DNA of 64,000 bases from Candidatus Gastranaerophilales bacterium (GCA_944325115.1 CALUYX010000001.1:8705-72704); one strand, 5' to 3'. Positions 335 to 57,865 are shown, counted from the stretch's first letter. Notes: generated from the letters alone by a model not told the origin. Numbers and translations: made by a program.

Positions 335-985
335 TTACAGTCGATAATCCAACATTTTTTTTCTTTGCGCTGCCTCAAATTCAAAACATTTTTTTATTAT
401 AAAGTTCATTTCTTTTTCACTAATGGAAATAAACACCAAAGAAGTGCTGTAGTTTTGCTCTCCCCTTATAGCCATGGGGTTTATTTTTACAATCTGTGCT
501 ACGGTTGAAATGTTGCACTCAGGAAAAGCCATTGTTACATCAAGTTTTGAGCAGCCGGAAATATTTTCTTTCAGCAGTATATTCATTCCTTTTGCACTTA
601 TGTTTCTTGAAGTGCCCTGTATGGTTTTTTTGATACCGCCATAGTAAATATTCAAGGTGGTTTTAACCTTGATTTCTGCTCTGATATATTGTCTGCGTTG
701 AATTTTTTCTGCCTTAGTCGGGAATGAAAACTTGTAATTATCTTCTGACCTTCCAATATATCTGCACTCAAATTTGAATATGCCGTTTTTTGTGTAGATG
801 TATAGTTCAACAGTTTGTTTTGATGAACAATCGAACACCATTTCTTTGCTTCTTAATTTTTCTATGACAATTTCTTTGTCACTATGAGAGTTGAAAGTAC
901 CAAAAAATCTTGCAGTGCTGTTTAGGTTTTTTATTACAAGCTCTGCCTTGCAACCCTTATCAATATATTCAAAATAGCTTTCCAT
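335..985 (-). CDS. PilZ-domain c-di-GMP receptor, YcgR-like (putative flagellar brake type)
   Basis: 216-aa ORF. The C-terminal half carries the PilZ signature RRQYIR (RxxxR) followed by GTSRNISAKG (D/NxSxxG). The N-terminal ~100 aa matches a YcgR-type PilZN domain in size and position. Confidence 0.75.
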   Translation of the reverse strand: MESYFEYIDKGCKAELVIKNLNSTARFFGTFNSHSDKEIVIEKLRSKEMVFDCSSKQTVELYIYTKNGIFKFECRYIGRSEDNYKFSFPTKAEKIQRRQYIRAEIKVKTTLNIYYGGIKKTIQGTSRNISAKGMNILLKENISGCSKLDVTMAFPECNISTVAQIVKINPMAIRGEQNYSTSLVFISISEKEMNFIIKKCFEFEAAQRKKMLDYRL

Positions 986-5646: not shown

Positions 5647-8600
5647 ATGTTTTCAAAGTTTTTTATAGACAGACCAAGATTTGCAATTGTAATTTCGCTA
5701 GTTATAACACTTGCGGGGTTAATTGCTCTTAAGGGTTTACCGCTTGAACAATATCCGACAATTACACCTCCTCAGGTAATAGTGTCTGCTACATACCCAG
5801 GTGCAAGCTCTGATGTTATAGAGTCAACCGTTGCTGCCCCTATTGAATCTGCCGTAAACGGCGTTGAAGACATGCTTTATATGACATCAAGTTCTAAAAA
5901 CGGCAGCTATAAGCTCAGTATTTACTTTAAAGTCGGTACGAACCCTGATATGGCTGTTGTAAATGTTCAGAACAAAACCTCTCTTGCAACCGCACGTTTG
6001 CCTGATGAAGTTAAAAGGTACGGGCTTACAATTAAAGAATCAACTGCAGGTGCAGGTCTTGTAATATATAGGGTTTTTTCTCCCGACGGTTCAAAAGACC
6101 TTGTTGAGCTTGCGAACTATGCTTCAATCTTTATAAAAGATGAACTTGCCCGTGTTGAGGGCATTGGCGAGGTTGTTGTTTTTGGCGGTAGGGATTATGC
6201 CATGCGTATATGGCTGGATGCCCAAAAACTTGCTGCCTTAAATGTTTCTCCTGCTGATGTTAACGCTGCAATTGCCGCTCAAAATGCTCAAGTGCCTGCA
6301 GGTAATATAGGTAACGAGCCTTTGGTAAACAAAAAAGATATGTCTATTGTTTTAAGGACTCAAGGCAGGTTGAAAACGGTCGAAGAATTTGAAAATATTA
6401 TTGTAAAGTCAAATCCTGACGGCTCTGCAATAAAAGTGTCCGATGTTGCACGAGTTGAGCTGGCTTCAGAAACATATGACTATTTAGGACGTGTTGATTT
6501 GCAGCCTGTTGCGGTTATTCAGGTAATTCAGCTTGCTGATGCTAACGCAGTTGAGCTTGCAAATAACTGTAACAAAAAGATGGAAGAGCTTTCAAAGAAT
6601 TTCCCCGACGGTATTTCATATGAGATATTTAGGGACTCGACAGATTTTATCAAAGAATCTCTAAATGAAGTTATAAAAGCTATTATTCTTGCAATATTTC
6701 TTGTAATAATGGTAGTGTACCTGTTTTTGGGCGATGTTAGGGCTTCATTTATCCCATTTGTTGCAATTCCCGTATCTTTGATAGGTACTGTGATAATTTT
6801 TGCTATACTTGGTTTTTCAATAAACACGCTTACGTTGTTTGGCTTTGTACTTGCTGTAGGTACGGTTGTGGATGATGCCATTGTTGTTATTGAAAACGTG
6901 CAAAGACACATTGAGGCGGGTTTGTCACCAAGAGAGGCTTCTATTATCTCTATGGATGAGGTTTCAGGTGCGGTTCTTGCTACTTCACTTGTTTTGATGG
7001 CAGTTTTTGTTCCCGTTGCTTTTATCCCAGGTATTACAGGTAAAATGTATCAACAATTTGCCGTAACAATTGCGGTTTCAATCGGTTTTTCAACTCTTGT
7101 TGCACTGACTTTAGCTCCTGCTCTTTGTGCAACAATACTGAAATCAAAAGACGAATTGCCTAAGCGCACATTTTTTAATAAATACAGAGAATTGTATCGT
7201 GATTACTGGCAGCACCATGCTAATTTAAGCGGTCTTGAGTTGGTTAAGGCTTGGGGTGAGTTTTTTGCCACGGCATGGGATATTACAATTAAAAAATTCA
7301 ACAGAATGTTTGATAGGATACGTGACACTTATATAGAAGGGTCAAAGTATTATATAGAAAAACCATCCAGAACAAAAATCACCTATGTTGTTTTGGTTAT
7401 TGCTCTGTTATTTTTGTTTAAACTTATTCCAACCGGATTTTTACCAAACGAGGACTCGGGTGCATTATTTACGAGTGTGCAGCTAAAGGACGGTTCTTCT
7501 TTATCTAAAACAATGTCTATAACAGATGAACTTGAAAAAGATATTTTAAAAGTCCCCGGTGTACTTAATGTTTTAGGGCTTGAGGGTATAAACGGTCAGA
7601 ATACTTCTATGATTATCACCCACTTTTTACCTTGGGAAGAAAGAAGGGCGGTGCCTTGGTATAAGCAAATTTTTATGAGCAAGGAGAAAAAATATCAGGC
7701 AAAACGCTCTCTTGAAGATATAAAGGCAAATGTAAATGCGCTGAGTGCTAAGTATCCTGATGCAAAAATATTTTCATTTATACCGCCTGCAATAACAGGG
7801 CTAAGTATGTATGGCGGCTTTGAATATCAACTTTTGGACAAAGCAAACAGAACACCTCAGGAACTTAATGAAGAAGCCAATAAGCTAATTTATGAAGCTA
7901 ACAGAAGTTCTGTTGTAACAGGGGTATTTACTCAATATAACGCAAATATTCCTCAATTCTTAATTGATATTGACTACAAAAAAGCTCTCGCTCAGGGTAT
8001 ACCTGTTAATGAGATATATACCGCATTATCTTCTCAATTTGGTCAGACTTATGTAAATGACTTCAATTTATATGGTCGTGTTTTCCGTGTAGTTTTACAG
8101 GCTCAAGAGGCATTTCGCTCTGCTCCTGCGGATATGGACAAGGTATACATTAAATCTTCTGACGGCAAGTCCTCCCCTTTAAGTTCCGTTGTTAGAATTG
8201 AGCCTGTGACAGGTCCTTATGATATTACAAGGTTTAATATGTATAAGTCTGTTCAGTTGAGCGGTAACCCTGCAAAAGGAAAAAGTTCGGGTCAGGCAAT
8301 TAAAGAAATGGAGAGAATTTCAAATGAAATATTGCCTGAGGATATGACTTTTGCTTGGTCGGGTACAAGTTTGCAGGAAATCGAATCCAGTGGTCAGACA
8401 ACAGTTGTGCTTGCAATGTCTTTGATATTTGTATATTTATTCCTTGTTGCGCTGTATGAAAGCTGGATGCTTCCTGTTGGTGTAATGTTAATTGCGCCCA
8501 TTGCCATGCTTGGTGCTTTGATATTTCAGTACATTGCAGGTTATGCTCTTGATTTGTATGCGCAAATCGGGCTTATTATGTTAATCGGTCTTGCTGCAAA

Positions 8601-8928
8601 ACAGGCGATATTAATCATTGAGTTTGCCAAAACTGCGCGCGAAGAACAAGGAATGAGCATATTTGATGCTGCAATTGAGGCTGCAAGAATAAGATTCAGA
8701 GCTGTTATGATGACAGTTATTGCATTTATCTTAGGTATGTTACCTCTTGTTTTTGCAGTAGGTCCCGGGGCTGAAAGCCGCCGTTCTCTTGGTATGACTG
8801 TTTTTGGCGGTATGATAGCAGCTGCCATTGTTGGTACTATTCTTGTACCGGCATTTTATGTAATTATTCAGCAGGCAAGAGAAAACGCGGCTGAGAAAAG
8901 ACGTAAAAAGGGAAAGAAAAATGAATAG
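5647..8928 (+). CDS. RND multidrug efflux permease, AcrB/HAE1 family
   Basis: 1093 aa. The N-terminus [18 protein letters not shown] is characteristic of the family. It has 12-TM topology with two large periplasmic loops and a [12 protein letters not shown] motif in TM4. Confidence 0.95.
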
Positions 8929-10660
8929 GATTTTGTCGTTTTTTATAATATTCAATGTAGTTTTTCTTAACTGTCCGTTTGTATTTTCTCAGGACATTGA
9001 GGCTAACTGGCATGAAGGTATTAGCCTTGAGAATGAATATTTAGCATATGCTAAAACAAAAAATGACGATAAAAGCGAAAAGAAAATTGCCTTTAGTTTC
9101 TTTAAAAAAGACAAAAATGAACTAAGTGAAGAAACAAAAAGAGAAAGAAAAACCTTTGAGTTTTTCAAAAAAAGAGAGAGTAAAGTGCAAGTTGAAAAAG
9201 ACGACAAACAAGTTGAACAAAATAAAGAAAAAGAAAAGAAACTTGCGGATAATGACTCTAAAAAGCCTCAAGAAAAAGTAAAAACAAAAAAGAATAATAA
9301 GAAAAAAGAAAATAAATACGAAGAGTATTCAATACCTGTTGATGCTTATATGCCCGTGGGCAACAGTGCTGATAAATCAATTACAATATCAGGTTCCGTG
9401 CAAAAAACACTTGAGCTGAATCTTGCCGATTGTCTTGAGCTTGCACTTATTAATAACCCAAAAATTAAGGCTGCTTATGCTAACGCTGAAGCAATGAAAT
9501 ACAGGAAAGGACAGACTTTGTCCAACTATTCTCCCGTTGTAAACTTGCAAGGGGGTATTTCAAGAATTAAGCCCGATATGAGCAACTTTAGAAGCAGAGG
9601 GATTGTGATTGACCCTTTTACAAAATATGTAATGGGTTCAATAGGCATTTCTCAACTTGTATATGACTTTGGTCTTACACAAAATCAATATACGATAGAT
9701 AAACTCAACTGGGAGTCTTCAAAGTCTAATATAGATTCAGTTGTAAATGAGGTTGTATGTCAATTAAAGGACGGATATTATAATCTTATTTATGCAATTG
9801 AGGCAAAAAGAGTTGCTCAAGAAACGCTTGAGCAGTTTGAGATAATGTACAAACAAGCTCTTGCATTCTACGAAGTGGGTACAAAGCCAAAGGTGGACGT
9901 TACAATTGCTCAGGTTAATATGGAAGATGCAAGAGCAAAGCTAATCAGTGCAAGCAATAATGTGGATATAGCAATTTCAAATCTGAATAATATTATGGGA
10001 TTGCCTTTTATTCCTCCTTACATTATTGATACATCCGCTCCTTTTCAAGACGTTGAAATAGATATGAGAAAAGCGGTTGAGATTGCAAATGAAGCGCGTC
10101 CTGAGTTAAAGATTGCAAAAATAAATGTAGAAACTGCTGACCAAGCAGTAAAACTTGCAAAAAAGACATATTTTCCTTCTTTAAATGTGCAGGCGAATTA
10201 TTCAATCGGCGGTGTGAATAATACAATTGCCGATACAAACTGGTGGGATTTTGGCGGATATTTGACCTTTCCTGCAATTAATCCTTTTTTGATAAGAAAT
10301 CAAATTAAAGAAGCTCGTGCTCAACTGGAAAAGCAAAAATTTGATTCAAAGGCAACTGTTAATGATATTTACTATGATATTCAAAGCACTTTTGTAAAAT
10401 TGGTTGACGCTAAACAAAGAGTTCCTGTTGCAAGGCTTGCTGTTAAAAAAGCAAAAGAAAATTATGAACTCTCGCAAGGACGCTACAGTGTTGGCGTGAG
10501 TGATGCAATTGAGTATAAAGAAGCGCAGATTCAATACTATGATGCAAGACTTGCATATTTAAATACGCTTTATCAGTTTAACAGCGCGAAGGCAAATTTA
10601 GAGCGTGCTATAGGTCAAACCCTTCCGGGTGTTGATAGTGCTGATGATGAAGGTATTTAA
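8921..10660 (+). CDS. outer-membrane efflux protein (TolC/OprM family) with Lys/Glu-rich N-terminal extension
   Basis: It has a signal peptide ([23 protein letters not shown]) and two OEP-type repeats ([18 protein letters not shown]...; [16 protein letters not shown]...). The start overlaps the RND stop by 8 nt. Confidence 0.88.
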
Positions 10661-17919: not shown

Positions 17920-17947
17920 TAAAGTTGTATTTTCTAATTGCCGATAT
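17920..17947 (+). promoter_or_regulatory. sigma-28 (FliA/SigD)-type promoter
   Basis: TAAAGTTG (17920-17927) is followed by a 12-nt spacer and GCCGATAT (17940-17947). The consensus is TAAA-N15-GCCGATAT, or TAAAGTTT-N11-GCCGATAA. The -10 is an exact match and the spacer is one nt longer. It lies 34 nt upstream of the ATG at 17982. Confidence 0.6.
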
Positions 17948-17981
17948 TAGTAACATAAGAACAATGGAGGCATAGAAAACA

Positions 17982-19007
17982 ATGGGAATGGCAGCAAGCC
18001 AAGCAAGATTTTTAGGTCTTACGGCAAGAAAAACAAACGTTGAATATGAAGGTCAACAAGTTAACCAACAAAGAACAGTACTCGCTAACGAAAGTGCGGG
18101 TTTGTTCAACCAAATGTTGACTTTACAAGTGCCCACTCCTCCGAGTGCTACTGATTACTATAACACTCGTTACACATTTGATTCTATGGGTGAAGATTTT
18201 TCAATTACTAAATATGACACCGCAGCAGGTGGTGCAGCAGGCGCATACAGCATTGTAATTGAATACTCCGAAACAGAACGTAAAGCCTATTCTTCAAGCC
18301 CCATTACCCAAGGTACTCCTGTTCAATTTGAAGACCAAACTCCCAAGAAAATATACATTGACGGTAAAGAATACGAAATTACACCAGCTGACGCCACTGG
18401 TATTGACAAAGGCAATATTGAAGTTATCAACTCTGCTATTATAAGTAATGATGCAACAAGACATCCTGAAAATGATACATACTACAAATACACTGTAAAC
18501 AAGGGTGAAACAGGCGAAAGAACTTATTATATCTCTTCATATGATATTAAAAATGCAAAATTGCCTAAAGACCCGTCAGAAATGTATACAGGTGGTTTAA
18601 CACAATACTTTGCTGCTGATGCTACAGTTAAAAAGACAGCAAATGCTACTGCTTCATTTGATACAACAACTGATGGCAGATTTGAATCCGTTAAAATTAC
18701 AAATGTTGATAATGAAACTTTAAGCGAAAAACTTTCAGGTAAGACATTTGAACTTGATTTGACTCAAGTTAATGATTCAGAAGGCTATGAAGCTGCAATG
18801 AAAGATTATGAATATCAAAAGATGGTATATGAAAGAGCTATCCAAGATATCAACGCAAGAACAGAAATTATCCAACAACAAGACAGAACTCTTGAATTGA
18901 GATTGAAACAGCTCGATACAGAGCAAGAAGCTCTTAAAACCGAAATGGATGCTGTTAAAGAAGTTATCCAAAAGAACGTTGAATCTACATTCAAAACATT
19001 TGCTTAG
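17982..19007 (+). CDS. hypothetical protein with conserved helical termini and T/Y/K/D-rich central domain (module gene A)
   Basis: 341 aa, with a GGAGG Shine-Dalgarno at 17966-17970 and no signal peptide. The N-terminal 45 aa and C-terminal ~80 aa are heptad-like helices. The N-terminus is paralogous to the ORF at 20378. Confidence 0.8.
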   Translation: MGMAASQARFLGLTARKTNVEYEGQQVNQQRTVLANESAGLFNQMLTLQVPTPPSATDYYNTRYTFDSMGEDFSITKYDTAAGGAAGAYSIVIEYSETERKAYSSSPITQGTPVQFEDQTPKKIYIDGKEYEITPADATGIDKGNIEVINSAIISNDATRHPENDTYYKYTVNKGETGERTYYISSYDIKNAKLPKDPSEMYTGGLTQYFAADATVKKTANATASFDTTTDGRFESVKITNVDNETLSEKLSGKTFELDLTQVNDSEGYEAAMKDYEYQKMVYERAIQDINARTEIIQQQDRTLELRLKQLDTEQEALKTEMDAVKEVIQKNVESTFKTFA

Positions 19008-19022
19008 TAAAATCGATAAAAT

Positions 19023-19050
19023 GCACCATGTCAACAAAAAGACATGGTGC
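19023..19050 (+). other. intercistronic 10-bp hairpin (attenuator/processing candidate)
   Basis: gcaccatgtc (19023-19032) pairs perfectly with gacatggtgc (19041-19050). No U-tract follows, so it is probably not a full terminator. Confidence 0.5.
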
Positions 19051-19085
19051 AATAATTAAAAAGTTATACACGAGGGTTAGTATTA

Positions 19086-19907
19086 ATGGTTTCTTACAAA
19101 AACATGCATGCGCTATCAATAGCAAATAAATACGGTTCTGCAAGCTCTATTGCAAAGGCAGAATTATATGAAACTTATGACAGATTAAGGGACTTAACCG
19201 TTTCAAGTTCAGCATCCTCTGGTAGCGGCTTTGGTACTGCAGGCGGTTTTTTGTGGCAATTAGCCAGCATGTTCTCCCCCAGTAGTTTTATGCCTATTAT
19301 GGGCGGAACAAATATGATGGATATTCCGGGGACTTCTTATTGGTCACCCATAACAGGTTCAACGGCATCATATGATGGTGCTACATCAGCCTTTGGCATT
19401 GGAAATCTTGGCTCTTACCCCGGTTTCCCATCCGGTGCCGCGGGTATTACACTTGGATTTGGTTCGGAAGGTATGCCAACAGGTGGTGCAGCAGGTCTTG
19501 CAACAGGCTATGCCGTAAGTTCAGCAGGAATTGCCGCCATGAATACGGCAAGTGCAGCTCTTGGTACTGCATCGGGCGGTTTTAGTTTTGGTCAAAATAT
19601 AGTTCTTCCCTTAGCCGGCATGATATCCGGTTGGGGCGGATTATTGCAAGCGATGTCACCTTATATGGGTGAATGGGGCTTGGGTGCAATTGTTGCAGGT
19701 AACTTAATGCAAGGTACCGGTAATGCTGCGGTAAGTGCTTATCAGAACGTTACGGGCAGAATTACAACAAATGCTGATGTCATTTTGTCGGATAGAGTAA
19801 AAAACATAGAAACAGTTTGTAAAATGCTTGATACTCAAGCGGATATTGTACGAAAAACTCTTAAAAATGATATTGAGTCAGATTCAAAACTATCTCAGGA
19901 TTTATAA
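19086..19907 (+). CDS. Gly/Ala/Ser-rich hypothetical protein (module gene B)
   Basis: 273 aa. Helical N- and C-terminal segments flank a ~190-aa G/A/S/M-rich core containing glycine-zipper-like stretches (AGIAAMNTASAALGTASGG, GLGAIVAGNLMQGTGNAAVSA). Confidence 0.7.
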   Translation: MVSYKNMHALSIANKYGSASSIAKAELYETYDRLRDLTVSSSASSGSGFGTAGGFLWQLASMFSPSSFMPIMGGTNMMDIPGTSYWSPITGSTASYDGATSAFGIGNLGSYPGFPSGAAGITLGFGSEGMPTGGAAGLATGYAVSSAGIAAMNTASAALGTASGGFSFGQNIVLPLAGMISGWGGLLQAMSPYMGEWGLGAIVAGNLMQGTGNAAVSAYQNVTGRITTNADVILSDRVKNIETVCKMLDTQADIVRKTLKNDIESDSKLSQDL

Positions 19908-19943
19908 TAATCATTAACTTTTGTAAATTTTTTATTTACCGAG

Positions 19944-19970
19944 TAAAGTTTATTTTTTCTGTGTCGATAT
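19944..19970 (+). promoter_or_regulatory. sigma-28 (FliA/SigD)-type promoter
   Basis: TAAAGTTT (19944-19951) is followed by an 11-nt spacer and GTCGATAT (19963-19970). The -35 is exact, the spacing is exact and the -10 matches 7/8. Confidence 0.6.
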
Positions 19971-20106
19971 TAGGAATATAGATATAGATTGAATTTTGGG
20001 AATGTTAACTTATCTGTAAAACAACAGGAGCAAATATTCACAGGCAATTTTATCTCAAATTTTGTTTTTATAAGTTTAGGGTTACCCCTAAAAAAGGAGT
20101 AAGCTC

Positions 20107-20376
20107 GTGCAACAAAGTATCCAAACAAATTTAAAAAGAATGAAGAATTTTTTGGGATTCTCAAGAAGCTTTCTAATAAGAAAGAACCCCATAAAAATAT
20201 TTTCAAAAGAATTTGTGACGATGCTGAAAAATTTCTTTTCTATGAACAAGAAAAGAAAAATGGTTAAGTACAGATTGAACTATCAACTTTATAAGTTGAA
20301 TCAAATGGAAAAACTGATTGCACAAAATAACGAGCATGTGTTCCTTAGAGGAAACAAGTTTAACGAAATGAGATAA
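20107..20376 (+). CDS. small basic hypothetical protein (module gene C)
   Basis: The GTG start is preceded by AAGGAG (20094-20099). The protein is 89 aa and Lys/Arg/Asn-rich. Its stop lies 1 nt before the next start. Confidence 0.55.
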   Translation: MQQSIQTNLKRMKNFLGFSRSFLIRKNPIKIFSKEFVTMLKNFFSMNKKRKMVKYRLNYQLYKLNQMEKLIAQNNEHVFLRGNKFNEMR

Positions 20377-20377
20377 A

Positions 20378-20701
20378 ATGGGCTTAATTGTATCGACAAT
20401 GAGATTAATACAATTGAATAGCATGAGGCTTGATATTGAATACAAGCTTATGCTAATCAACTCATCTCGTCTGCAATTAACCGCTTCAACCGGTGACCTG
20501 CAAACTCTTGGAACAGACCTTGACCCGGAATCTGCTGAAGCAAAAGCTCTTCAAAAACGACAGGAACGCTTGCAAATTGTTGAAAAACGCTTGGAAGAAC
20601 AGGCGCAGAGATATCAAATTCAACTCAAGATGATTGAAAGCGAAATCCAAAGCCTTAATTCAACTATTGATTCAAATATTCAAATGTCTTTCGGACGATA
20701 A
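20378..20701 (+). CDS. short coiled-coil protein, paralog of the termini of gene A (module gene D)
   Basis: 107 aa. MGLIVSTMRLIQLNSMRLDIEYKLMLINSSR aligns without gaps to MGMAASQARFLGLTARKTNVEYEGQQVNQQR of the 17982 ORF. The C-terminus is coiled-coil. Confidence 0.7.
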   Translation: MGLIVSTMRLIQLNSMRLDIEYKLMLINSSRLQLTASTGDLQTLGTDLDPESAEAKALQKRQERLQIVEKRLEEQAQRYQIQLKMIESEIQSLNSTIDSNIQMSFGR

Positions 20702-20711
20702 TATAAATTTA

Positions 20712-20735
20712 AAAGGCGGTTTTAAAACCGCCTTT
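20712..20735. terminator. bidirectional Rho-independent terminator
   Basis: This is a perfect 24-nt palindrome, aaaggcggttttaaaaccgccttt, between the convergent module gene D and leuS. Confidence 0.8.
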
Positions 20736-20739
20736 ATTG

Positions 20740-23202
20740 CTATTTAACAACCAGATTGATGAGTTTATTTGGTACAACAATTGATTTAACAAGTGTTTTA
20801 CCCTCAAGTGATTGTTTTATTTTTTCATTTTCAAGAGCAAGTTTCTTTAGCTCTTCTTCAGGTGTATCGACAGCTATTTCAACCTTGTCGCGGATTTTAC
20901 CGTTTACTTGAAGAATAAAAGTTATATCGGCTTGTTTAGCTAAGTTTTCATCATATTTTAGCCAAGGTTCGTTGTGTATTGATGTTTTTGCGCCAAGCCC
21001 TTCATAAATTGCTTCACTCATAAATACTGCAACGGGCGAGATGAGTCTTAGGAGTGCCAAAAGTGCAAAACTCAGGACATTTTTTTCTATTTTTGATTCG
21101 TCACGGATGTATTCGTATATGGCGTTAGTTAGCTCTCTGTATCTTGATGTTACGGTATTAAACTGAAATTCGTTTTCAATATCGTTTGTGATTTTTTTGA
21201 TAGATATGTGAACTTCGCGAAGCAGTTTTTCGCTTTCTTTATCAAGATTTTGAGGTATTTGATAGTTCAAGTCTATGATATCTTGGAATTTTGAATACAA
21301 TCTGTACACGCGGCATAGGAACTTATAGCAGCCCTCAACGCCTGCATCTGACCAGTCAAAATCTCTTGCCGGAGGTGAGTCTGATATAATAAACAATCTT
21401 GCAGTGTCTGCGCCGTAATTTGCAAATATTTCATCGGGGTCTACGGTATTACCTTTTGATTTAGACATTTTTGAACCGTCTTTTAGAACCATGCCTTGAG
21501 TTAATAGGTTTTTAAACGGTTCATCAAAATCAAGTAAACCAATATCCCTTAGAGCTTTTGTAAAGAATCTTGAGTACAAAAGGTGTAAAATAGCGTGTTC
21601 TATACCGCCTACGTATTGGTCAACGGGCAGCCATTTGTTTACAAGTTTCTTATCAAACGCTTTTTTGTCATTGCGAGCATCGGCATAGCGCATATAATAC
21701 CAGCTTGAGCACATAAATGTGTCCATAGTATCTGTTTCACGCTTTGCGGGAGCTCCGCAGATTGGACATTTTGTGTCCATAAAGGTTTTTGAAGTCAAAA
21801 TTGGTGATTTGCCAACTACGCTAAAATCGACATCTTCAGGCAGTTTAACAGGTAAATCTTCATCAGGAACAGGTACTGTGCCGCATTTATCACAGTAAAT
21901 AATAGGAATGGGCGCGCCCCAGTATCTTTGTCTTGAAATTAGCCAATCGCGAAGTCTGTATTGAGTTTTTGCGTAGCCAAAACCGCCGTTTTCGGCAATT
22001 TGAGTAACTTTTTTCTTTGCTTCTTCGCTTGTAAGTCCGTTGCATTCGCCTGAATTAATAAGTATACCGTATTGAGCATAGCAGTTTACGCCATCGTCAC
22101 CTTCGCCGGTAATTACTCTTATAACAGGAAGATTATATTTTTTTGCAAAATCCCAGTCACGCTCATCGTGAGCAGGAACTGCCATAACAGCACCTGTTCC
22201 GTAGTCAACAAGAGCGTAATCCGCAGTGTAGATTGGGCATTCGCGTCCTGTTAGAGGGTTAATAATATGTGTACCAAGGGCTACACCTGTTTTAACGCGC
22301 TCAGTGGAAAGTCGTTCTATTTCAGACATTTTTCTTGCATTTTCGCGATATTTTTCAACTTCCTCTTTTTGTTCAGGGGTTGTAAGTTTTTCAATATCGG
22401 GGTACTCAGGTGCTACAACAAGGTATGTTACACCATAAGCTGTATCTGGACGTGTAGTGTACACGGGTACTTCAAGACCTTCAATTTCTTTAACTTTAAA
22501 TTTTAAAATTGTACCTGTTGATTTGCCTATCCAGTTTGCCTGCATGGTTTTGACGTTGTCGCCCCAGCCTGTGAGCTTATCTAGGTCTTGAAGTAAAACC
22601 TCTGCGTAGTCAGTGATTTTTAAGAACCATTGCCACAAGTTTTTCTTTGTTACTTCATTGTCGCATCTCCAGCACTTGCCATCTATTACCTGTTCGTTTG
22701 CAAGTACTGTTGCGCAATGTTCGCACCAGTTAACGGCTGCTTGTTTTTTATATGCAAGACCTTTTTTATAAAGTTGCAAAAACAACCATTGAGTCCACTT
22801 GTAGTAGTCCTCTTTGCATGTTGTAACTTCTCTGTCCCAATCGACACTTAAACCAAGTTTTTTTAGCTGCATTTTCATATATGCAATGTTTTCATCAGTC
22901 CATTTTGCAGGGTTTGCGCCGTGTTGAATTGCTGCGTTTTCTGCAGGAAGACCAAAGCTGTCCCATCCCATAGGATGAAGCACATTGTAACCTTGGGATT
23001 TTTTAAATCTTGCAATTACATCGGTTATTGTATAGTTTCTAACGTGACCCATGTGAAGTTTTCCGCTCGGGTATGGAAACATTGAAAGGGCGTAGTATTT
23101 AGGTTTATCAGAATCGTCATATGTTTTATGAGGATTTGTTTTTTCCCATATTTCTAATCGTTCTTTTTCAATCTGTTGCGGAAAACATTCTTTTTCTAAC
23201 AC
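20740..23202 (-). CDS. leuS: leucine--tRNA ligase
   Basis: 820 aa. It has the class I HIGH motif (PSGKLHMGHVRNY), KMSKS (SKMSKSKGN) and a CP1 editing domain. The overall match is unmistakable. Confidence 0.97.
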   Translation of the reverse strand: MLEKECFPQQIEKERLEIWEKTNPHKTYDDSDKPKYYALSMFPYPSGKLHMGHVRNYTITDVIARFKKSQGYNVLHPMGWDSFGLPAENAAIQHGANPAKWTDENIAYMKMQLKKLGLSVDWDREVTTCKEDYYKWTQWLFLQLYKKGLAYKKQAAVNWCEHCATVLANEQVIDGKCWRCDNEVTKKNLWQWFLKITDYAEVLLQDLDKLTGWGDNVKTMQANWIGKSTGTILKFKVKEIEGLEVPVYTTRPDTAYGVTYLVVAPEYPDIEKLTTPEQKEEVEKYRENARKMSEIERLSTERVKTGVALGTHIINPLTGRECPIYTADYALVDYGTGAVMAVPAHDERDWDFAKKYNLPVIRVITGEGDDGVNCYAQYGILINSGECNGLTSEEAKKKVTQIAENGGFGYAKTQYRLRDWLISRQRYWGAPIPIIYCDKCGTVPVPDEDLPVKLPEDVDFSVVGKSPILTSKTFMDTKCPICGAPAKRETDTMDTFMCSSWYYMRYADARNDKKAFDKKLVNKWLPVDQYVGGIEHAILHLLYSRFFTKALRDIGLLDFDEPFKNLLTQGMVLKDGSKMSKSKGNTVDPDEIFANYGADTARLFIISDSPPARDFDWSDAGVEGCYKFLCRVYRLYSKFQDIIDLNYQIPQNLDKESEKLLREVHISIKKITNDIENEFQFNTVTSRYRELTNAIYEYIRDESKIEKNVLSFALLALLRLISPVAVFMSEAIYEGLGAKTSIHNEPWLKYDENLAKQADITFILQVNGKIRDKVEIAVDTPEEELKKLALENEKIKQSLEGKTLVKSIVVPNKLINLVVK

Positions 23203-29648: not shown

Positions 29649-29837
29649 ATGGCAAGGATTTTGGTTTCTATGCCCGATGATTTTCTAAAGTCTGTAGATA
29701 AACTTGCGGATAATGAAAGAAGAACACGTTCTGAACTTGTAAGGGAAGCTCTTCGAGCTTACATCAGAAAAACCAATAGTTTGAACTCCAAAAAAGCTGT
29801 TGAAAACGCAAAAACACTTGAAAATTTGCTTGATTAA
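29649..29837 (+). CDS. ribbon-helix-helix (CopG/Arc/MetJ-type) DNA-binding protein
   Basis: 62 aa. ILVSMPDDFLKSVDKLADNERRTRSELVREALRAYI fits the canonical RHH pattern of a beta-strand plus two helices. Confidence 0.75.
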   Translation: MARILVSMPDDFLKSVDKLADNERRTRSELVREALRAYIRKTNSLNSKKAVENAKTLENLLD

Positions 29838-30871
29838 AGTGTTTTGATTTTTTCAATTATTGTTTTTATTTCTTCGGTCAAATCTTCTTTTTTGGGCGGA
29901 TAAATTGTAATGTAATCTTTTATGGTTTTTGCAAAATCAGCTTTTTTGAAATCTCCAAAACCTTTTTGTTTGAATATTTCATATAGTTCCTTGGCTGTTT
30001 TTGCGTCTTTGTGGAAATCTTCTTCTTTGCAGTTGTAACAGCTGCTGTATCTGTAGTTTAGTGCATCTGTAATTATTTTTTTTGGCAATATGTCTTCAAA
30101 TTCGCCGTTATGTATTATATAGATTCTGTCTTTTGCTCTTAGTTTTGGCAATATTAAGTCTTTTGTTGCCTGCGCATCGGAGTCAAGAAGTATGAAAATG
30201 GGAATATTATACTCTTCTGCCATAGAATAGTATTTTCTTGCTACCTGATTTTTACCTCCTGCGCCAAGTACGTAAATCCCGTTTTTCTTGAAATCGTATT
30301 CACAAATTGTCGAAAATTTGCCAAGCAGTATTTCTTCCGTTGCACCCTCACACAGAAGAACTTTTTCAATAGGATAAAGCAGCGATTTTTCTTTTCTCAA
30401 CTCTTGAGCTTCACATTTAAGAGTGTTTAATTGAAGCATTTGTAAAAGGTTTAATTTTAAATCTTCTTCATCTTTTATTGCCTCAAGTGCAGCATTGAAG
30501 TTAATATCCGCTTCAAGATATTTTTTTGAGAGCGGGTTTAATAAAAAAAGGCGCTCTTCTTCTTTTTTTAAATATTCATTTATAAAATGGTCATTTTTGA
30601 TATTGTTATCAAGGCTTGAATTAAAAATTTTGCAAACCAGACTTATTTTTTCATCGGGATTTAGGCATGATGTGTCTGTTTCTTCTCTGTTTTCAAAAAT
30701 TAGAAATTTATTTAATATGTCGTTAAAAACTCGCTCGTACCTTTCTGATGCGGGTTTTAGGCGAAACAATCGGTCAAGAATAACCTTAATATAAGATTTT
30801 GGTATTTTTTTAAACTTCATAAATGTTAACTTTTTCAACTTTACTTTATAAAAAAAAGCCAAAAAAAGCAA
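29834..30871 (-). CDS. stand-alone OLD-type Toprim-domain protein (no ATPase domain)
   Basis: The C-terminal half has VLLCEGATEE (Toprim Glu), GAGGKNQV and ILLDSDAQ (DxD). The N-terminal ~170 aa is helical without a Walker A. The start is uncertain: TTG at 30871 or ATG at 30820. Confidence 0.65.
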   Translation of the reverse strand: MLFLAFFYKVKLKKLTFMKFKKIPKSYIKVILDRLFRLKPASERYERVFNDILNKFLIFENREETDTSCLNPDEKISLVCKIFNSSLDNNIKNDHFINEYLKKEEERLFLLNPLSKKYLEADINFNAALEAIKDEEDLKLNLLQMLQLNTLKCEAQELRKEKSLLYPIEKVLLCEGATEEILLGKFSTICEYDFKKNGIYVLGAGGKNQVARKYYSMAEEYNIPIFILLDSDAQATKDLILPKLRAKDRIYIIHNGEFEDILPKKIITDALNYRYSSCYNCKEEDFHKDAKTAKELYEIFKQKGFGDFKKADFAKTIKDYITIYPPKKEDLTEEIKTIIEKIKTL

Positions 30872-55787: not shown

Positions 55788-56873
55788 TTGATTTTTAAAT
55801 ATCTTGCATATATACTTACAAATGTTATGTTTACAAATTTATCTTGTAAAACACTGGATGATTATCTGGTAAGTTTGCGGAACTCGGATATACTGTTATA
55901 CGGTGCAGGGGCTTTTGGTGGTGAGCTTTGTGACGTGTTAAAAAAGCACTCGATTTTACCTGTAGCCTTTTTAGATAAGAATAAAACCGGCACTAAACTC
56001 TCTGTTCCGATTTTTCATCCAAAGGAATACAAAAATAAAGATTCGCTTGTTGTTATAGCAATTGTGCTTAACAAGTCAGATAGAATTGAACTTATTAAAT
56101 ACTTAAATTCGCTTGGTTATAATAATATCCTTGATGGACAGATAATTAGGGCGCATTATGTACAATTTGAATCAGGCAAAACATATTGCCCCAATGAAGC
56201 GAGCTTGCCGCTGGCGTATCTTGCTGATGAAGAAAGTGTTATAACATATAAAACAAATGTCCTGGCACATTTAAATCGTAATTATGACAACTGTGTACAA
56301 ACTGATGAGAAATTTCAATATTTTGTAAATATAGAAGGTAATAATCGTTTTTCAAATTTTGTAGATTGTGGCGCATATATTGGTGATACATACCTTGAGG
56401 CTAAAAAGGCCGGGGTTGTTATTGATAATTACTATGCTTTTGAACCAATGCTTAATAATTTTGAAAAATTAAGGGAAAATCTGAAAGATATTAACTGTTA
56501 TGCTTATAACTATGCAGTTTCAGATAGCAAAAAGACCTTGTGTTTTCAAGATATGCTTGGCTCTTCGCATTCATGTGAAAACGGCGGCGTGCTTGTGAGT
56601 GCAATAAATTTAGACAACATATTGTCCGATAAGAAGATAGATTTTATTAAAATGGATATCGAGGGAGAGGAGCTCGGTGCTCTTATTGGGGCACAGAAAA
56701 TAATAAAAACCCAGAAGCCTAACCTTGCAATATGTCTGTATCATTACATCAATCATTTTTGGGAGATACCAAATTTGATACATAGTTGGAACTTGGGTTA
56801 TAAACTCTATGTAAGAACTCACTCGGGTGCTTGTATGGAGACTGTACTGTATGCAATTAAGGAGGAAAAATGA
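55788..56873 (+). CDS. FkbM-family methyltransferase with N-terminal Rossmann-like domain
   Basis: The N-domain has LLYGAGAFGGELCDVL. The catalytic part has FVDCGAYIGDT, YAFEP and FIKMDIEGEELGAL. The start is uncertain: TTG at 55788 or ATG at 55827. Confidence 0.8.
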   Translation: MIFKYLAYILTNVMFTNLSCKTLDDYLVSLRNSDILLYGAGAFGGELCDVLKKHSILPVAFLDKNKTGTKLSVPIFHPKEYKNKDSLVVIAIVLNKSDRIELIKYLNSLGYNNILDGQIIRAHYVQFESGKTYCPNEASLPLAYLADEESVITYKTNVLAHLNRNYDNCVQTDEKFQYFVNIEGNNRFSNFVDCGAYIGDTYLEAKKAGVVIDNYYAFEPMLNNFEKLRENLKDINCYAYNYAVSDSKKTLCFQDMLGSSHSCENGGVLVSAINLDNILSDKKIDFIKMDIEGEELGALIGAQKIIKTQKPNLAICLYHYINHFWEIPNLIHSWNLGYKLYVRTHSGACMETVLYAIKEEK

Positions 56874-57865
56874 GTACATCACAGTGCACAAAAAGGGTGG
56901 AGCTTGCAAAACAACTCCCGTTGAAGACTCCCTTTTCGGTTCACATTTTTCCTATTTATATGTGCAATTTTAAATGCAAATATTGCCTGCACTCAATGAG
57001 TACTTCTGAGCTTGCAAAAAAAGGTTTTAAGAAGTCTGTTATGGACTTTTCAATATATAAAAAAGCCATAGATGGCATAAAAGAATATGATGACAAACTA
57101 AAAGCTCTTATTTTTGCAGGGCATGGTGAGCCTCTTTTGCATAAAGACATTTGTAAAATGGTTAAATATGCAAAAGATGCCAATATTGCACAACGCGTTG
57201 AGATAGTTACCAATGCTTCATTGTTGGATAAAAAAATGTCTGACGGGCTTATTGAAGCAGGAGTTGATAGACTAAAAATATCAATTCAGGGTACCAATGC
57301 AAAAAAATATAAAGAAGTATCTGATTATGATATGGACTATAGTGAATTTTTGTCAAATCTTAAATATTTTAAAGAAAACAAAAAACATACCGAAGTTTAC
57401 ATAAAAATTATAGATATCGCACTTGACGGCAAAGAGGATGAGATGCTTTTTAAAAACTTATTTGAACCCGTTGCCGATTATGTTGATATTGAATATGCCA
57501 TACCTTTTATAAATGAGCTCAATGAAGACGTTTATGGTGATAAAGAATTTGATAAATGCAAACAGGGTAACTTGCAAAAGTCGAAAATATGTTCAATGCC
57601 ATTTTACATGCAGGTTGTAGCTCCTAATGGCGATATTTTACCCTGTTGTTCTACTGACGTTCCGATTGTTCTTGGAAATATAGATGACACTTCAATTAAG
57701 GAAATTTGGAATAATAAAACAACAAAAGGCTTTCTAAAGACCATGTTAACAGACAAAAATAAAAATGCAGTATGTGCAAATTGTTGTGTGCCCGAATTTG
57801 GTCTGCAGGAAGGCGATTATTTGGATGAGTATAAAGATGAATTATTGAAAAAATACGAGGAATAA
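56870..57865 (+). CDS. radical SAM / SPASM-domain protein (paralog 1)
   Basis: It has the CNFKCKYC (CxxxCxxC) cluster and a GHGEPLL GGE-like motif. The C-terminal auxiliary-cluster region is CSMPFYMQVVAPNGDILPCC...CANCC. ATGA overlaps the upstream gene. Confidence 0.85.
   Translation: MSTSQCTKRVELAKQLPLKTPFSVHIFPIYMCNFKCKYCLHSMSTSELAKKGFKKSVMDFSIYKKAIDGIKEYDDKLKALIFAGHGEPLLHKDICKMVKYAKDANIAQRVEIVTNASLLDKKMSDGLIEAGVDRLKISIQGTNAKKYKEVSDYDMDYSEFLSNLKYFKENKKHTEVYIKIIDIALDGKEDEMLFKNLFEPVADYVDIEYAIPFINELNEDVYGDKEFDKCKQGNLQKSKICSMPFYMQVVAPNGDILPCCSTDVPIVLGNIDDTSIKEIWNNKTTKGFLKTMLTDKNKNAVCANCCVPEFGLQEGDYLDEYKDELLKKYEE

What the first reader, a model, noticed from the sequence alone, without database searches (positions are those of the whole stretch)
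17920..20735. Sigma-28-driven four-gene module encoding proteins with flagellin-like architecture but no recognisable flagellar sequence
Two transcription units each sit behind a near-consensus FliA/SigD promoter and end at a perfect palindromic terminator. They are A-B (17982-19907) and C-D (20107-20701).

A (341 aa) and D (107 aa) are paralogs at their ends.
- The first 41 residues align without gaps: MGMAASQARFLGLTARKTNVEYEGQQVNQQRTVLANESAGL versus MGLIVSTMRLIQLNSMRLDIEYKLMLINSSRLQLTASTGDL. I count 11 identities (M1 G2 S6 R9 L13 E21 Y22 N28 R31 L34 L41) plus many V/I/L, K/R and N/D conservative pairs.
- Both end in heptad-like coiled coils that finish with I..N[VI]..S.F.
- A carries a ~230-aa T/Y/K/D/E-rich, probably beta-rich insert between the helices. 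D is essentially the helices alone.

Conserved terminal helices with a variable middle, sigma-28 control and no signal peptide are the hallmarks of exported flagellar axial or filament proteins. However, I cannot match either terminus to flagellin, FlgK/FlgL, FliD, FlaG, FliS or FlgM sequence patterns. Gene B is a Gly/Ala/Ser-rich protein and gene C is a small basic protein. This could be an undescribed filament, sheath or accessory set of the motility regulon.
Basis: partly seen in the sequence, partly recalled or inferred. Interest (0 to 1): 0.75.

Follow-up and report, generated by a model that had tools for sequence, protein, structure and literature searches.

The report
Sigma-28-driven hairpin-protein module, function unproven
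A four-gene module in a gut non-photosynthetic cyanobacterium (Gastranaerophilales) sits behind conserved flagellar-type sigma-28 promoters and encodes a large undescribed protein family laid out like flagellin but with no detectable sequence relationship to it, so it may form an unknown exported filament or filament accessory.

Summary
The four genes are real. They are A 17982-19007, B 19086-19907, C 20107-20376 and D 20378-20701. They are conserved as an A-B-C-D module in about 43 of 85 related Gastranaerophilales loci.

**Promoters.** Sigma-28-type promoters (TAAAGTT-N11/12-GCCGATAT) occur only twice in the 64 kb window, upstream of A and of C. They are kept at the same places in distant relatives while the spacers diverge.

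**Proteins.** A and D are true paralogs (hhalign 97%). D is a confident antiparallel helical hairpin. A is the same hairpin with a ~205-aa beta-rich domain inserted at its tip. Its termini are nearly invariant and its middle is variable. Neither Pfam, NCBIfam, PDB sequence searches nor profile-profile comparison links A, B, C or D to flagellin, hook-associated proteins or any known family. Foldseek matches to flagellar filaments are weak (TM below 0.2) and no better than matches to phage proteins.

**Link to flagella.** Some relatives' contigs carry flagellar export genes and a FliA-like sigma factor, but not more often than chance would give.

**Verdict.** This is a new protein superfamily in a sigma-28 regulon. 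It most likely encodes flagellar-type-III-exported axial or filament-like proteins, but export and polymerisation are untested.

The parts
17920..17947 (+). Sigma-28 (FliA/SigD)-type promoter of gene A: TAAAGTTG-N12-GCCGATAT. Its last base is 34 nt upstream of the ATG.
   Evidence: One of only 2 matches in the window. The same motif lies at -58 to -79 of 40 of 100 A-homolog starts under a strict pattern, and most of the rest have degenerate variants. Under a relaxed motif, 48 of 75 hits in 1.49 Mb lie upstream of A genes.
17982..19007 (+). Gene A, 341 aa, acidic (pI 4.66), with no hydrophobic segment. It is a helical hairpin (helix 2-47 and helix 266-340) with a ~205-aa beta-rich domain inserted at the tip. 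It is the major member of a new superfamily.
   Evidence: ORF. More than 5000 homologs, none with a Pfam domain. Termini nearly invariant and middle variable. AF2 model with pLDDT 80. dN is 0.016-0.020 in the termini and 0.117 in the middle.
19022..19051 (+). Perfect 11-bp stem with an 8-nt loop in the A-B spacer. It has no U-tract on the + strand. Probable attenuator or mRNA-stabilising hairpin after A, not a terminator at the end of B.
   Evidence: Conserved in 10 close relatives with 2 compensatory pairs. Absent in distant relatives, where the A-B spacer is only 20-65 nt.
19086..19907 (+). Gene B, 273 aa, rich in Gly, Ser and Ala, with conserved predicted-helical N- and C-termini. It is well conserved along its whole length (53-71% identity across the order) and always follows an A gene.
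   Evidence: No Pfam, NCBIfam or PDB match. Maximum Kyte-Doolittle hydropathy is 1.44, so it is not a clear membrane protein.
19944..19970 (+). Sigma-28-type promoter of the C-D unit: TAAAGTTT-N11-GTCGATAT. It implies a 5' leader of roughly 130 nt.
   Evidence: The second of the 2 window matches. 17 relaxed-motif hits lie 126-176 nt upstream of C genes in relatives.
20107..20376 (+). Gene C, 89 aa, GTG start, very basic (pI 10.96), with a conserved C-terminal half (KMAKYRVNYQ.YKLNQMEQLIAENNEHVFLRGNK). Its stop lies 1 nt before D's start, so it is probably translationally coupled to D.
   Evidence: Found in 43 loci, always immediately before D. No family match.
20378..20701 (+). Gene D, 107 aa, the bare helical hairpin (helix 2-45, loop, helix 53-105). 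It is the minimal paralog of A.
   Evidence: AF2 model with pLDDT 89.8 and pTM 0.71. 143 representative clusters with E below 1e-3 among 1.84 billion proteins. hhalign against the A family gives 97.1%.
20712..20735 (.). Perfect 12+12 palindrome AAAGGCGGTTTT/AAAACCGCCTTT. It is a bidirectional terminator-like hairpin shared by D and the convergent leuS gene (20740-23202, minus strand).

Best explanation
This is a late-class module of the FliA (sigma-28) regulon of Gastranaerophilales. It encodes a previously undescribed superfamily of helical-hairpin proteins.

**Proposed roles**
- D is the bare antiparallel hairpin.
- A is the same hairpin with a variable beta-rich domain inserted at the tip.
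- I propose that A and D are Sec-independent substrates of the flagellar type III export apparatus. They would assemble through their near-invariant terminal helices into, or onto, an extracellular axial structure, with A's variable domain facing outward as in flagellin. That structure could be a filament, a filament layer, or a junction or cap.
- C is basic and translationally coupled to D. It would act as D's cytoplasmic partner, either a chaperone or a regulator.
- B is conserved and Gly-rich, has helical termini, and always follows A. It would be a further structural or assembly partner.
- The hairpin after A would let A mRNA outnumber B mRNA.

**Shown**
- The genes and their conservation as a module.
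- The promoter motifs and their conservation.
- The A/D paralogy and the hairpin fold.
- The absence of homology to known families.
- Co-occurrence with flagellar export genes and a FliA-like sigma factor in relatives.

**Inferred**
- Sigma-28 dependence.
- Export.
- Polymerisation.
- The roles of B and C.
For: **Promoters**
- Near-consensus sigma-28 motifs occur only upstream of A and C in the 64 kb window.
- They are conserved in position while the spacers diverge in relatives down to about 40% A identity.
- In 1.49 Mb of related DNA, 65 of 75 relaxed-motif hits lie upstream of A or C genes.
- A more distant relative (L089) and a 579-aa paralog (L057) and its homolog in L095 also carry the motif.

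**Architecture**
- The N-terminal ~60 aa and C-terminal ~80 aa are nearly invariant and the middle is variable.
- Nonsynonymous change is about 6-fold faster in the middle than in the termini.
- Tandem paralogs are common.
- A is acidic, has no signal peptide or hydrophobic segment, and contains no Cys or Trp (read from the translation).
- D is a confident hairpin and is homologous to A's termini. A is therefore a hairpin with an insert at its tip, which is the chain topology of flagellin D0 and its outer domains.

**Flagellar context**
- Contigs carrying the family also carry flhB plus a FliA/WhiG-like sigma factor (L049), fliP/fliO/fliMN (L057), fliJ, a weak FliK-like match (below the Pfam cut-off) and a FlgE/F/G-like gene (L023/L024), and fliN (L030).
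- Published work reports that most Gastranaerophilales retain flagellar export genes while lacking a complete annotated set (PMC4040986; bioRxiv 10.64898/2026.04.24.720558).
- The top Foldseek PDB hits for A are flagellar filaments, though weakly.
Against: - No sequence or profile similarity to flagellin, to FlgK, FlgL, FliD, FlgE, FlgG or FliE, or to the flagellar chaperones. The best hhalign probability was under 5%.
- A has a single N-terminal helix (46 aa) and a single C-terminal helix (75 aa). It lacks the D0 plus D1 helix set of flagellin.
- Foldseek matches to flagellins have TM 0.12-0.18. Phage PA14 and tail proteins match with similar E-values.
- D matches any long antiparallel coiled coil: IpaB, HP0958, Vipp1, Rad50.
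- Flagellar genes lie within 10 kb in only 5 of 85 loci, about what chance would give. The adjacency of the 579-aa paralog to fliMN in L057 is not conserved in L095.
- The middle domain is under purifying selection, not diversifying selection (dN/dS 0.065).
- Canonical flagellins have been reported in gut Melainabacteria (PMC3787301), so the filament role may already be filled.
- The window itself carries no flagellar gene.
Confidence: 0.4

Rival explanations
1. A and D are secreted but do not polymerise. They would be surface, adhesin or effector proteins released by the flagellar export apparatus that many non-motile Gastranaerophilales retain. The conserved helices would serve as the export and chaperone-binding module, and the variable domain would be the functional part.
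For: Literature reports that about 75% of genomes retain flhB, fliI and flgG without a complete flagellar set, 'postulated to be involved in extracellular secretion' (bioRxiv 10.64898/2026.04.24.720558). Insert sizes in the superfamily vary widely, from 160 to about 620 aa. No flagellin-type D1 helices are present.
Against: The extreme conservation covers both entire long helices (about 45 and 75 aa), and a hairpin-only paralog exists (D). Both fit a structural packing interface better than an export signal. B, C and D are conserved together with A.
Confidence: 0.2
2. The proteins are intracellular coiled-coil proteins under sigma-28 control. They could be a cytoskeletal, polar-scaffold or motor/chemoreceptor-associated assembly, and would not be exported at all.
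For: D's closest structural matches are generic cytoplasmic coiled-coil hairpins: HP0958, CT398, Vipp1/PspA, Rad50. No export signal can be demonstrated. The middle domain is under purifying selection. The genes are scattered among housekeeping genes.
Against: A variable inserted beta domain, frequent tandem duplication with different promoters, an acidic Cys-free composition and wide variation in insert length are typical of surface-exposed subunits and unusual for cytoplasmic scaffolds.
Confidence: 0.2
3. A, D and the larger paralogs are true but extremely diverged homologs of flagellin and the hook-associated proteins. They would be the lineage's own FliC, FlgL, FlgK and FliD, which annotation pipelines miss.
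For: The size classes (107, about 340 and about 580 aa) loosely recall the flagellin and hook-associated-protein size range. Most genomes are reported as having 'incomplete' flagellar sets. Control by sigma-28 fits. The top PDB Foldseek hits are flagellins.
Against: Profile-profile comparison gives 0.14% probability against a flagellin profile and under 5% against every E. coli flagellar protein tested, axial proteins included. The flagellin profile used was of low diversity (Bacillus plus Salmonella). The helix count differs. Canonical flagellins are reported in some gut Melainabacteria.
Confidence: 0.1
4. The TAAAG...GCCGATA motif is read by a different group-3 sigma factor, and the module has nothing to do with the flagellar system. 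It could be an envelope, stress or developmental function.
For: Sigma-28-type factors control non-flagellar genes in non-flagellated bacteria (own knowledge: Chlamydia sigma-28, Streptomyces WhiG). In the sampled DNA the motif is almost exclusive to this family and was not seen in front of recognisable flagellar genes. Linkage to flagellar genes is at chance level.
Against: The motif matches the FliA/SigD consensus, including the extended TAAAGTTT -35 element. The only small sigma factor seen in the sampled DNA lies directly after flhB and scores best against the FliA/WhiG model.
Confidence: 0.1

Closest known systems
Flagellin (FliC/Hag; Pfam Flagellin_N PF00669 plus Flagellin_C PF00700)
   Same: Sigma-28-type promoter. 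No signal peptide. Conserved N- and C-terminal helices that pair antiparallel, with a variable beta-rich domain inserted between them. Multiple paralogs, often in tandem. Acidic and free of Cys. A stem-loop follows the structural gene.
   Different: No sequence or profile similarity. Only one helix at each end instead of the D0 plus D1 helices. Structural matches have TM below 0.2. The module carries three partner genes (B, C, D) that have no flagellar counterparts.
Flagellar axial and hook-associated proteins (FlgK, FlgL, FliD, FlgE, FlgG)
   Same: Heptad-like terminal helices with a central insert of variable size. Several size classes within one superfamily (107, about 340 and about 580 aa).
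   Different: No Flg_bb_rod or Flg_bbr_C motifs. hhalign probabilities are under 5%. Genuine FlgE/F/G-like genes exist separately in relatives.
Coiled-coil hairpin proteins of virulence type III secretion systems (IpaB N-terminal coiled coil; by analogy EspA filament and needle subunits)
   Same: D superposes on the IpaB 74-224 coiled-coil hairpin with TM 0.86-0.88. It is a small hairpin protein preceded by a small partner gene, as with chaperone and substrate pairs (the last point is from own knowledge).
   Different: The Foldseek E-value is only about 1e-2, and equal TM scores are obtained with unrelated coiled coils. There is no sequence similarity. No injectisome genes were seen.
Non-flagellar members of sigma-28 regulons (own knowledge: Chlamydia hctB; B. 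subtilis SigD-dependent autolysins)
   Same: A FliA-type promoter in front of genes that are not canonical flagellar parts.
   Different: Those genes belong to known families. Here the whole four-gene module is unannotated and lineage-specific.

Membership tests
Flagellin (FliC/Hag) | Flagellin_N (PF00669) and Flagellin_C (PF00700) sequence domains | tested here: not met
   No hit for A at E up to 1. No hit in any of 25 diverse A homologs at E up to 10. The A HMM scores 2.6 bits against Hag. hhalign of the A family against a flagellin alignment gives 0.14% probability.
Flagellin (FliC/Hag) | D0 plus D1 architecture: ND0, ND1a and ND1b helices at the N-terminus, CD1 and CD0 at the C-terminus | tested here: not met
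   The AF2 model has one N-terminal helix (2-47) and one C-terminal helix (266-340). Foldseek against flagellar filaments gives TM 0.12-0.18, no better than phage controls.
Flagellin (FliC/Hag) | Conserved termini, variable central domain, no signal peptide | tested here: met
   Alignment A1. dN by region. Hydropathy.
Flagellin (FliC/Hag) | Export by the flagellar type III apparatus and polymerisation into a helical filament | not testable with these tools
   No multimer prediction, proteomics or imaging was available.
Flagellar axial proteins (FlgB/C/F/G/E/K/L, FliD, FliE) | Flg_bb_rod N-terminal and Flg_bbr_C C-terminal motifs, or detectable profile similarity | tested here: not met
   No Pfam or NCBIfam hits. 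hhalign of the A, B, C and D families against every E. coli flagellar protein gives at most 4.2% probability.
FliA (sigma-28) regulon | Promoter matching TAAA-N15-GCCGATAA at a suitable distance from the gene | tested here: met
   Window sites at 17920-17947 and 19944-19970. Conserved in orthologous positions.
FliA (sigma-28) regulon | A FliA-type sigma factor and a flagellar apparatus present in the same organism | tested here: inconclusive
   Not present in the 64 kb window. Relatives' contigs carry flhB plus a sigma factor whose best match is FliA/WhiG (E = 1.4e-21, below the curated cut-off), as well as fliP, fliO, fliMN, fliJ and a flgE-like gene. The rest of this genome could not be read.
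FliA (sigma-28) regulon | Transcription that depends on sigma-28 | not testable with these tools
   Needs transcription start-site mapping, a fliA mutant or in-vitro transcription.
T3SS coiled-coil hairpin proteins (IpaB/EspA/needle) | Specific structural or sequence similarity beyond a generic antiparallel coiled coil | tested here: inconclusive
   D against IpaB gives TM 0.86-0.88 but E about 1e-2. Similar TM scores arise with HP0958, CT398, moesin, STAT5 and Vipp1. The PDB sequence search returns only coiled-coil noise.
PspA/Vipp1/ESCRT-III | Hairpin plus further helices in a protein of about 220 aa, with sequence similarity | tested here: not met
   Only the hairpin superposes (TM 0.77-0.81, E above 0.3). 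There is no Pfam PspA_IM30 hit. D is only 107 aa.

The most novel reading that the evidence does not exclude
The A/D superfamily, with B and C, builds a previously unknown extracellular filament or needle-like appendage that is not made of flagellin. It would be assembled by the flagellar-type III export apparatus that most Gastranaerophilales retain even though their annotated flagellar gene sets look incomplete. This would be a third kind of T3SS-built polymer alongside the flagellar filament and the injectisome needle or EspA filament. It would explain the 'incomplete flagella' of this widespread human-gut lineage.
Probability: 0.25. Interest if true: 0.9.

Novelty: new variant of a known kind. 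Interest (0 to 1): 0.7.

Why it matters
Gastranaerophilales are widespread gut relatives of Cyanobacteria with no cultured, characterised representative. Published genome surveys disagree on whether they are motile, because most genomes keep the flagellar export genes but not a complete annotated set.

This family has thousands of members and sits behind conserved sigma-28 promoters. Its members are laid out like flagellin but are invisible to Pfam, NCBIfam and (by inference) KEGG-type annotation. It is therefore an obvious candidate for the missing exported component.

If it is a filament or a secreted surface protein, it would also be a major and variable surface antigen of a human-gut lineage. 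That would bear on host recognition, since it lacks the flagellin sequence, and with it presumably the TLR5-recognised region. If it is cytoplasmic, it is still a new, abundant coiled-coil family tied to a motility sigma factor.

Tried and rejected
- **Family searches.** Pfam and NCBIfam scans of A-D returned nothing, or only coiled-coil noise for D. A Pfam scan of 25 A homologs individually returned only coiled-coil noise.
- **PDB sequence searches.** Profiles of A, B and D returned nothing meaningful.
- **Third database search poorly spent.** I used the last homologous-protein search on a Hag plus FliC profile to obtain diverse flagellins. It returned only Salmonella and Citrobacter sequences, so the flagellin profile used for hhalign is of low diversity.
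- **hhalign against single E. coli flagellar proteins.** No signal.
- **Cluster-member look-up for organism names.** No names were held.
- **Supplement searches for flagellar gene tables.** Two Melainabacteria papers gave nothing. Literature searches for a prior description of the family found none.
- **Rfam scan of the region.** Nothing above noise.
- **Conserved linkage of the 579-aa paralog to fliMN.** Tested with a metagenome scan and not conserved.
- **Diversifying selection on A's middle domain.** Rejected, dN/dS 0.065.
- **B as an integral membrane protein.** Only one borderline hydrophobic window.
- **Phage origin.** Rejected. BFVD hits have TM below 0.25, and the family sits among housekeeping genes in many genomes.


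Full report
**What is there**

The window is low-GC (35%) DNA of a member of the Gastranaerophilales, the non-photosynthetic gut Cyanobacteria also called Melainabacteria or Vampirovibrionia. The nearest genome-collection matches to gene A (85-94% identity) are Gastranaerophilales MAGs. One homolog is annotated as coming from Candidatus Gastranaerophilus.

- A, 17982-19007, 341 aa
- B, 19086-19907, 273 aa
- C, 20107-20376, 89 aa, GTG start
- D, 20378-20701, 107 aa

A and C have clear ribosome-binding sites. C's stop and D's start are 1 nt apart.

**Promoters**

The pattern TAAA-N14-16-GYCGATAW occurs twice in the 64 kb window, at 17920-17947 and 19944-19970. These sites lie directly upstream of A and of C. 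Shuffles give 0.14 expected matches. Both sites carry the extended TAAAGTT(T/G) -35 element of the FliA consensus.

The stronger evidence is comparative.
- Under a strict pattern the motif lies 58-79 nt upstream of 40 of 100 A-homolog start codons in 85 related loci. The spacers between the two elements have diverged.
- Most of the remaining starts carry recognisable degenerate versions, such as GCCGACTA, GTCGTAAA or TCCGATAC. The exceptions are second copies in tandem arrays, which share a different, sigma-70-like upstream region.
- Under a relaxed pattern there are 75 hits in 1.49 Mb. Of these, 48 lie upstream of A genes and 17 lie 126-176 nt upstream of C genes.
- A more distant relative also has a perfect TAAAG-N15-GCCGATAA motif. 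This is L089, whose housekeeping proteins are about 54% identical to Gastranaerophilales.
- A divergent 579-aa paralog has the motif as well.

**Hairpins**

That is between A and B, and it has no U-tract on the + strand. Nothing comparable follows B.

This stem is conserved in ten close relatives, with two compensatory base pairs and a free-varying loop. It is absent from distant relatives, where A and B are only 20-65 nt apart. I read it as an attenuator or stabiliser that lets A mRNA exceed B mRNA. This is an inference.

The palindrome at 20712-20735 after D is real. It is shared with the convergent leuS gene.

**The proteins**

*Gene A.* A has more than 5000 homologs with E at or below 1e-3, and none carries a Pfam domain. 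The genome collection holds at least 543 encoding loci, essentially all in Gastranaerophilales bins.

The alignment shows an almost invariant N-terminus (MGMAASQARFLGLTARKTNVEYEGQQVNQQR..., about 60 aa). The C-terminus is equally conserved (...QQQDRTLELRLKQLDTEQ.AL.TEM.AVK.VI.KNVE.TFKTFA, about 80 aa). Between them lies a length-variable middle that can hardly be aligned.

The AF2 model (pLDDT 80) gives helix 2-47, a beta-rich region 60-264, and helix 266-340.

Among eight close orthologs, dN is 0.020 in the N-terminus, 0.117 in the middle and 0.016 in the C-terminus. dN/dS is 0.03, 0.065 and 0.017 respectively. The middle is therefore relaxed, not positively selected.

*Gene D.* The AF2 model of D is a confident antiparallel hairpin: helix 2-45, a loop, then helix 53-105, with pLDDT 89.8 and pTM 0.71.

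*A and D are paralogs.* Four results agree:
- Iterated HMMs merge the two families.
- phmmer with D alone against 1.84 billion representatives finds 143 proteins. Several are 196-323 aa A-like proteins matched at both ends.
- hhalign gives 97.1% probability, E = 5.7e-11.

So A is D's hairpin with a domain inserted at the tip. The superfamily spans about 100 to 620 aa.

*Genes B and C.* B is rich in Gly, Ser and Ala. It is conserved over its full length, at 53-71% identity across the order, and has conserved N- and C-termini predicted to be helical. It always follows an A gene. C is very basic (pI 10.96), has a conserved C-terminal half, and always directly precedes D.

*Module conservation.* The order [extra A]-A-B-C-D holds in about 43 loci and in different genomic neighbourhoods.

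**Relationship to known families**

I found none at sequence level.
- Pfam and NCBIfam give no hit for A-D, for 25 diverse A homologs, or for distant superfamily members.
- PDB sequence searches with profiles of A, B and D give nothing or coiled-coil noise.
- hhalign of the A family against a flagellin alignment gives 0.14%. That alignment was Hag plus Salmonella and Citrobacter FliC, so it is of limited diversity.
- hhalign of A, B, C and D against each E. coli flagellar protein peaks at 4.2%.

At structure level the evidence is weak.
- The best PDB Foldseek hits for A are flagellar filaments: 9n59 (E = 1.4e-4), 8sug, and Salmonella cap and junction complexes. Their TM scores are only 0.12-0.18.
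- A control search of viral models gives phage PA14 and tail proteins with equal E-values and equal TM scores. This match therefore says little beyond "long helices plus a beta domain".
- D superposes well on any long antiparallel coiled coil: IpaB (TM 0.88), HP0958, CT398, Vipp1, Rad50. All have E above 1e-2.

The flagellin likeness is one of design only: a hairpin of conserved terminal helices, an insert at the tip, no signal peptide, sigma-28 control, and paralog arrays. It is not membership. A also lacks the D1 helices of flagellin.

**Link to the flagellar system**

The window itself has no flagellar or chemotaxis gene. It holds efflux, glycogen and starch enzymes, leuS, hydF, prfA, and a sugar-modification cluster.

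I used E. coli K-12 flagellar proteins as queries against all ORFs of the related loci, then confirmed hits with Pfam and NCBIfam. Several contigs that carry the family also carry flagellar genes:
- L049: flhB, followed directly by a 220-aa sigma factor whose best model is FliA/WhiG (E = 1.4e-21)
- L057: fliP, fliO and fliMN
- L023 and L024: fliJ, a weak FliK-like match (E = 0.002, below the Pfam cut-off) and a FlgE/F/G-like gene
- L030: fliN

It is not evidence of linkage. Five of 85 loci is about what random 20-kb windows would give; this is my rough estimate of 6-8%. In L057 the 579-aa paralog sits next to fliMN, but that adjacency is not kept in its homolog in L095.

The literature gives mixed context.
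- Canonical flagellins were reported in four Melainabacteria genomes (PMC3787301).
- Only 3 of 9 Gastranaerophilales genomes (PMC4040986), or about 25% (bioRxiv 10.64898/2026.04.24.720558), have complete flagellar sets.
- The remaining genomes retain flhB, fliI and flgG.

**Interpretation**

My best explanation (confidence 0.4) is that this is a late, FliA-dependent module. Its hairpin proteins A and D would be exported by the flagellar type III apparatus. They would assemble through their invariant helices into or onto an extracellular axial structure, with A's variable domain exposed. C would be D's coupled cytoplasmic partner, and B a conserved structural or assembly partner.

Shown:
- the genes, the module and the promoter motifs, and their conservation
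- the paralogy and the fold
- the lack of known homology
- co-occurrence with flagellar genes in the lineage

Inferred:
- sigma-28 dependence
- export
- polymerisation
- the roles of B and C

The rivals are:
- secreted but non-polymerising surface or effector proteins (0.2)
- intracellular coiled-coil scaffold proteins (0.2)
- undetectably diverged true flagellin or hook-associated-protein homologs (0.1)
- a motif read by another sigma factor, with no flagellar connection (0.1)

**Novelty and score**

I found no description of this family in Pfam, NCBIfam, PDB or the searchable literature. It is a large, lineage-restricted, unannotated superfamily.

I file it as a new variant of a known kind: sigma-28-controlled proteins with flagellin-like design. 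The open and more exciting possibility is that it is a categorically new T3SS-built polymer. I give that a probability of about 0.25.

I score interest at 0.7. The mechanism, however, remains inferential.

Noticed in passing
window 56870-59907 (within the 50.5-63 kb cluster): Three tandem radical-SAM/SPASM paralogs lie inside a sugar and glycan modification cluster. The cluster also holds dTDP-sugar enzymes, two FkbM-type methyltransferases, and GT1, GT2 and GT8 glycosyltransferases. This is an unusual combination, and its product is unknown.
   Followed up: partly
L001/L002 12785-14930: In an 84%-identical relative, a third sigma-28 motif drives an extra 695-aa protein. It is Ser/Thr-rich, has a coiled coil, and carries DxDGDG calcium-binding-like repeats. 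The gene is inserted between D and leuS and is absent from the window.
   Followed up: partly
window 19022-19051 and orthologous spacers: The A-B spacer hairpin is conserved, with compensatory changes, in the window's clade and a neighbouring clade. Distant clades lack it, and there A and B are only 20-65 nt apart.
   Followed up: yes
L046, L047, L052, L072, L074, L057 (about 7000-10000): In another clade, solo A paralogs sit in a conserved cluster. It comprises a 234-aa Cys-motif (CPHG..CPIC) coiled-coil protein, a 500-aa membrane protein, a 168-aa protein, and then A. None of the three has a known family.
   Followed up: no
L029, L031, L033-L036, L038, L043, L045, L051, L058, L060, L064, L068 (second A copy): The second A paralog in tandem arrays has its own conserved upstream region, which is sigma-70-like (...TGACA...N17...TTAAAT) rather than the sigma-28 motif. 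The paralogs are therefore differently regulated.
   Followed up: partly
L057 2866-4602 and L095 about 8001-9614: A divergent superfamily member of 540-580 aa (MGLAASQARLLTITARK...SKNIEKSFKRYDA) carries a large alpha/beta insert and its own sigma-28-like motif. It lies next to fliMN-fliO-fliP in L057 but not in L095. A conserved 273-275-aa gene follows it on the opposite strand in both loci.
   Followed up: partly
L051 5939-6786 and L068 4555-5397: A 274-aa protein of unknown family (METIMRLSGIQASNYSTK...) is the only other gene family in the sampled DNA that repeatedly has the sigma-28-like motif upstream.
   Followed up: no
L003 11876-12025; L023 11782-12012; L077 3216-3446: In 15 loci of other clades a small ORF of 49-76 aa lies between B and C. 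The window has no such ORF in its 199-bp B-C spacer.
   Followed up: no
window 335-985 (-) and 29649-30871: A PilZ-domain protein lies at the left end of the window. Further along, an OLD-like TOPRIM protein is preceded by a 62-aa ORF that was not characterised further.
   Followed up: no
L057 11392-12483, L083 downstream of A, L046/L072 about 3 kb downstream: Type IV prepilin-like proteins (N-terminal FTLAEVLIALAIIGIV) recur close to solo A paralogs, directly downstream in two loci. This may be chance in genomes with many pilin-like genes.
   Followed up: no
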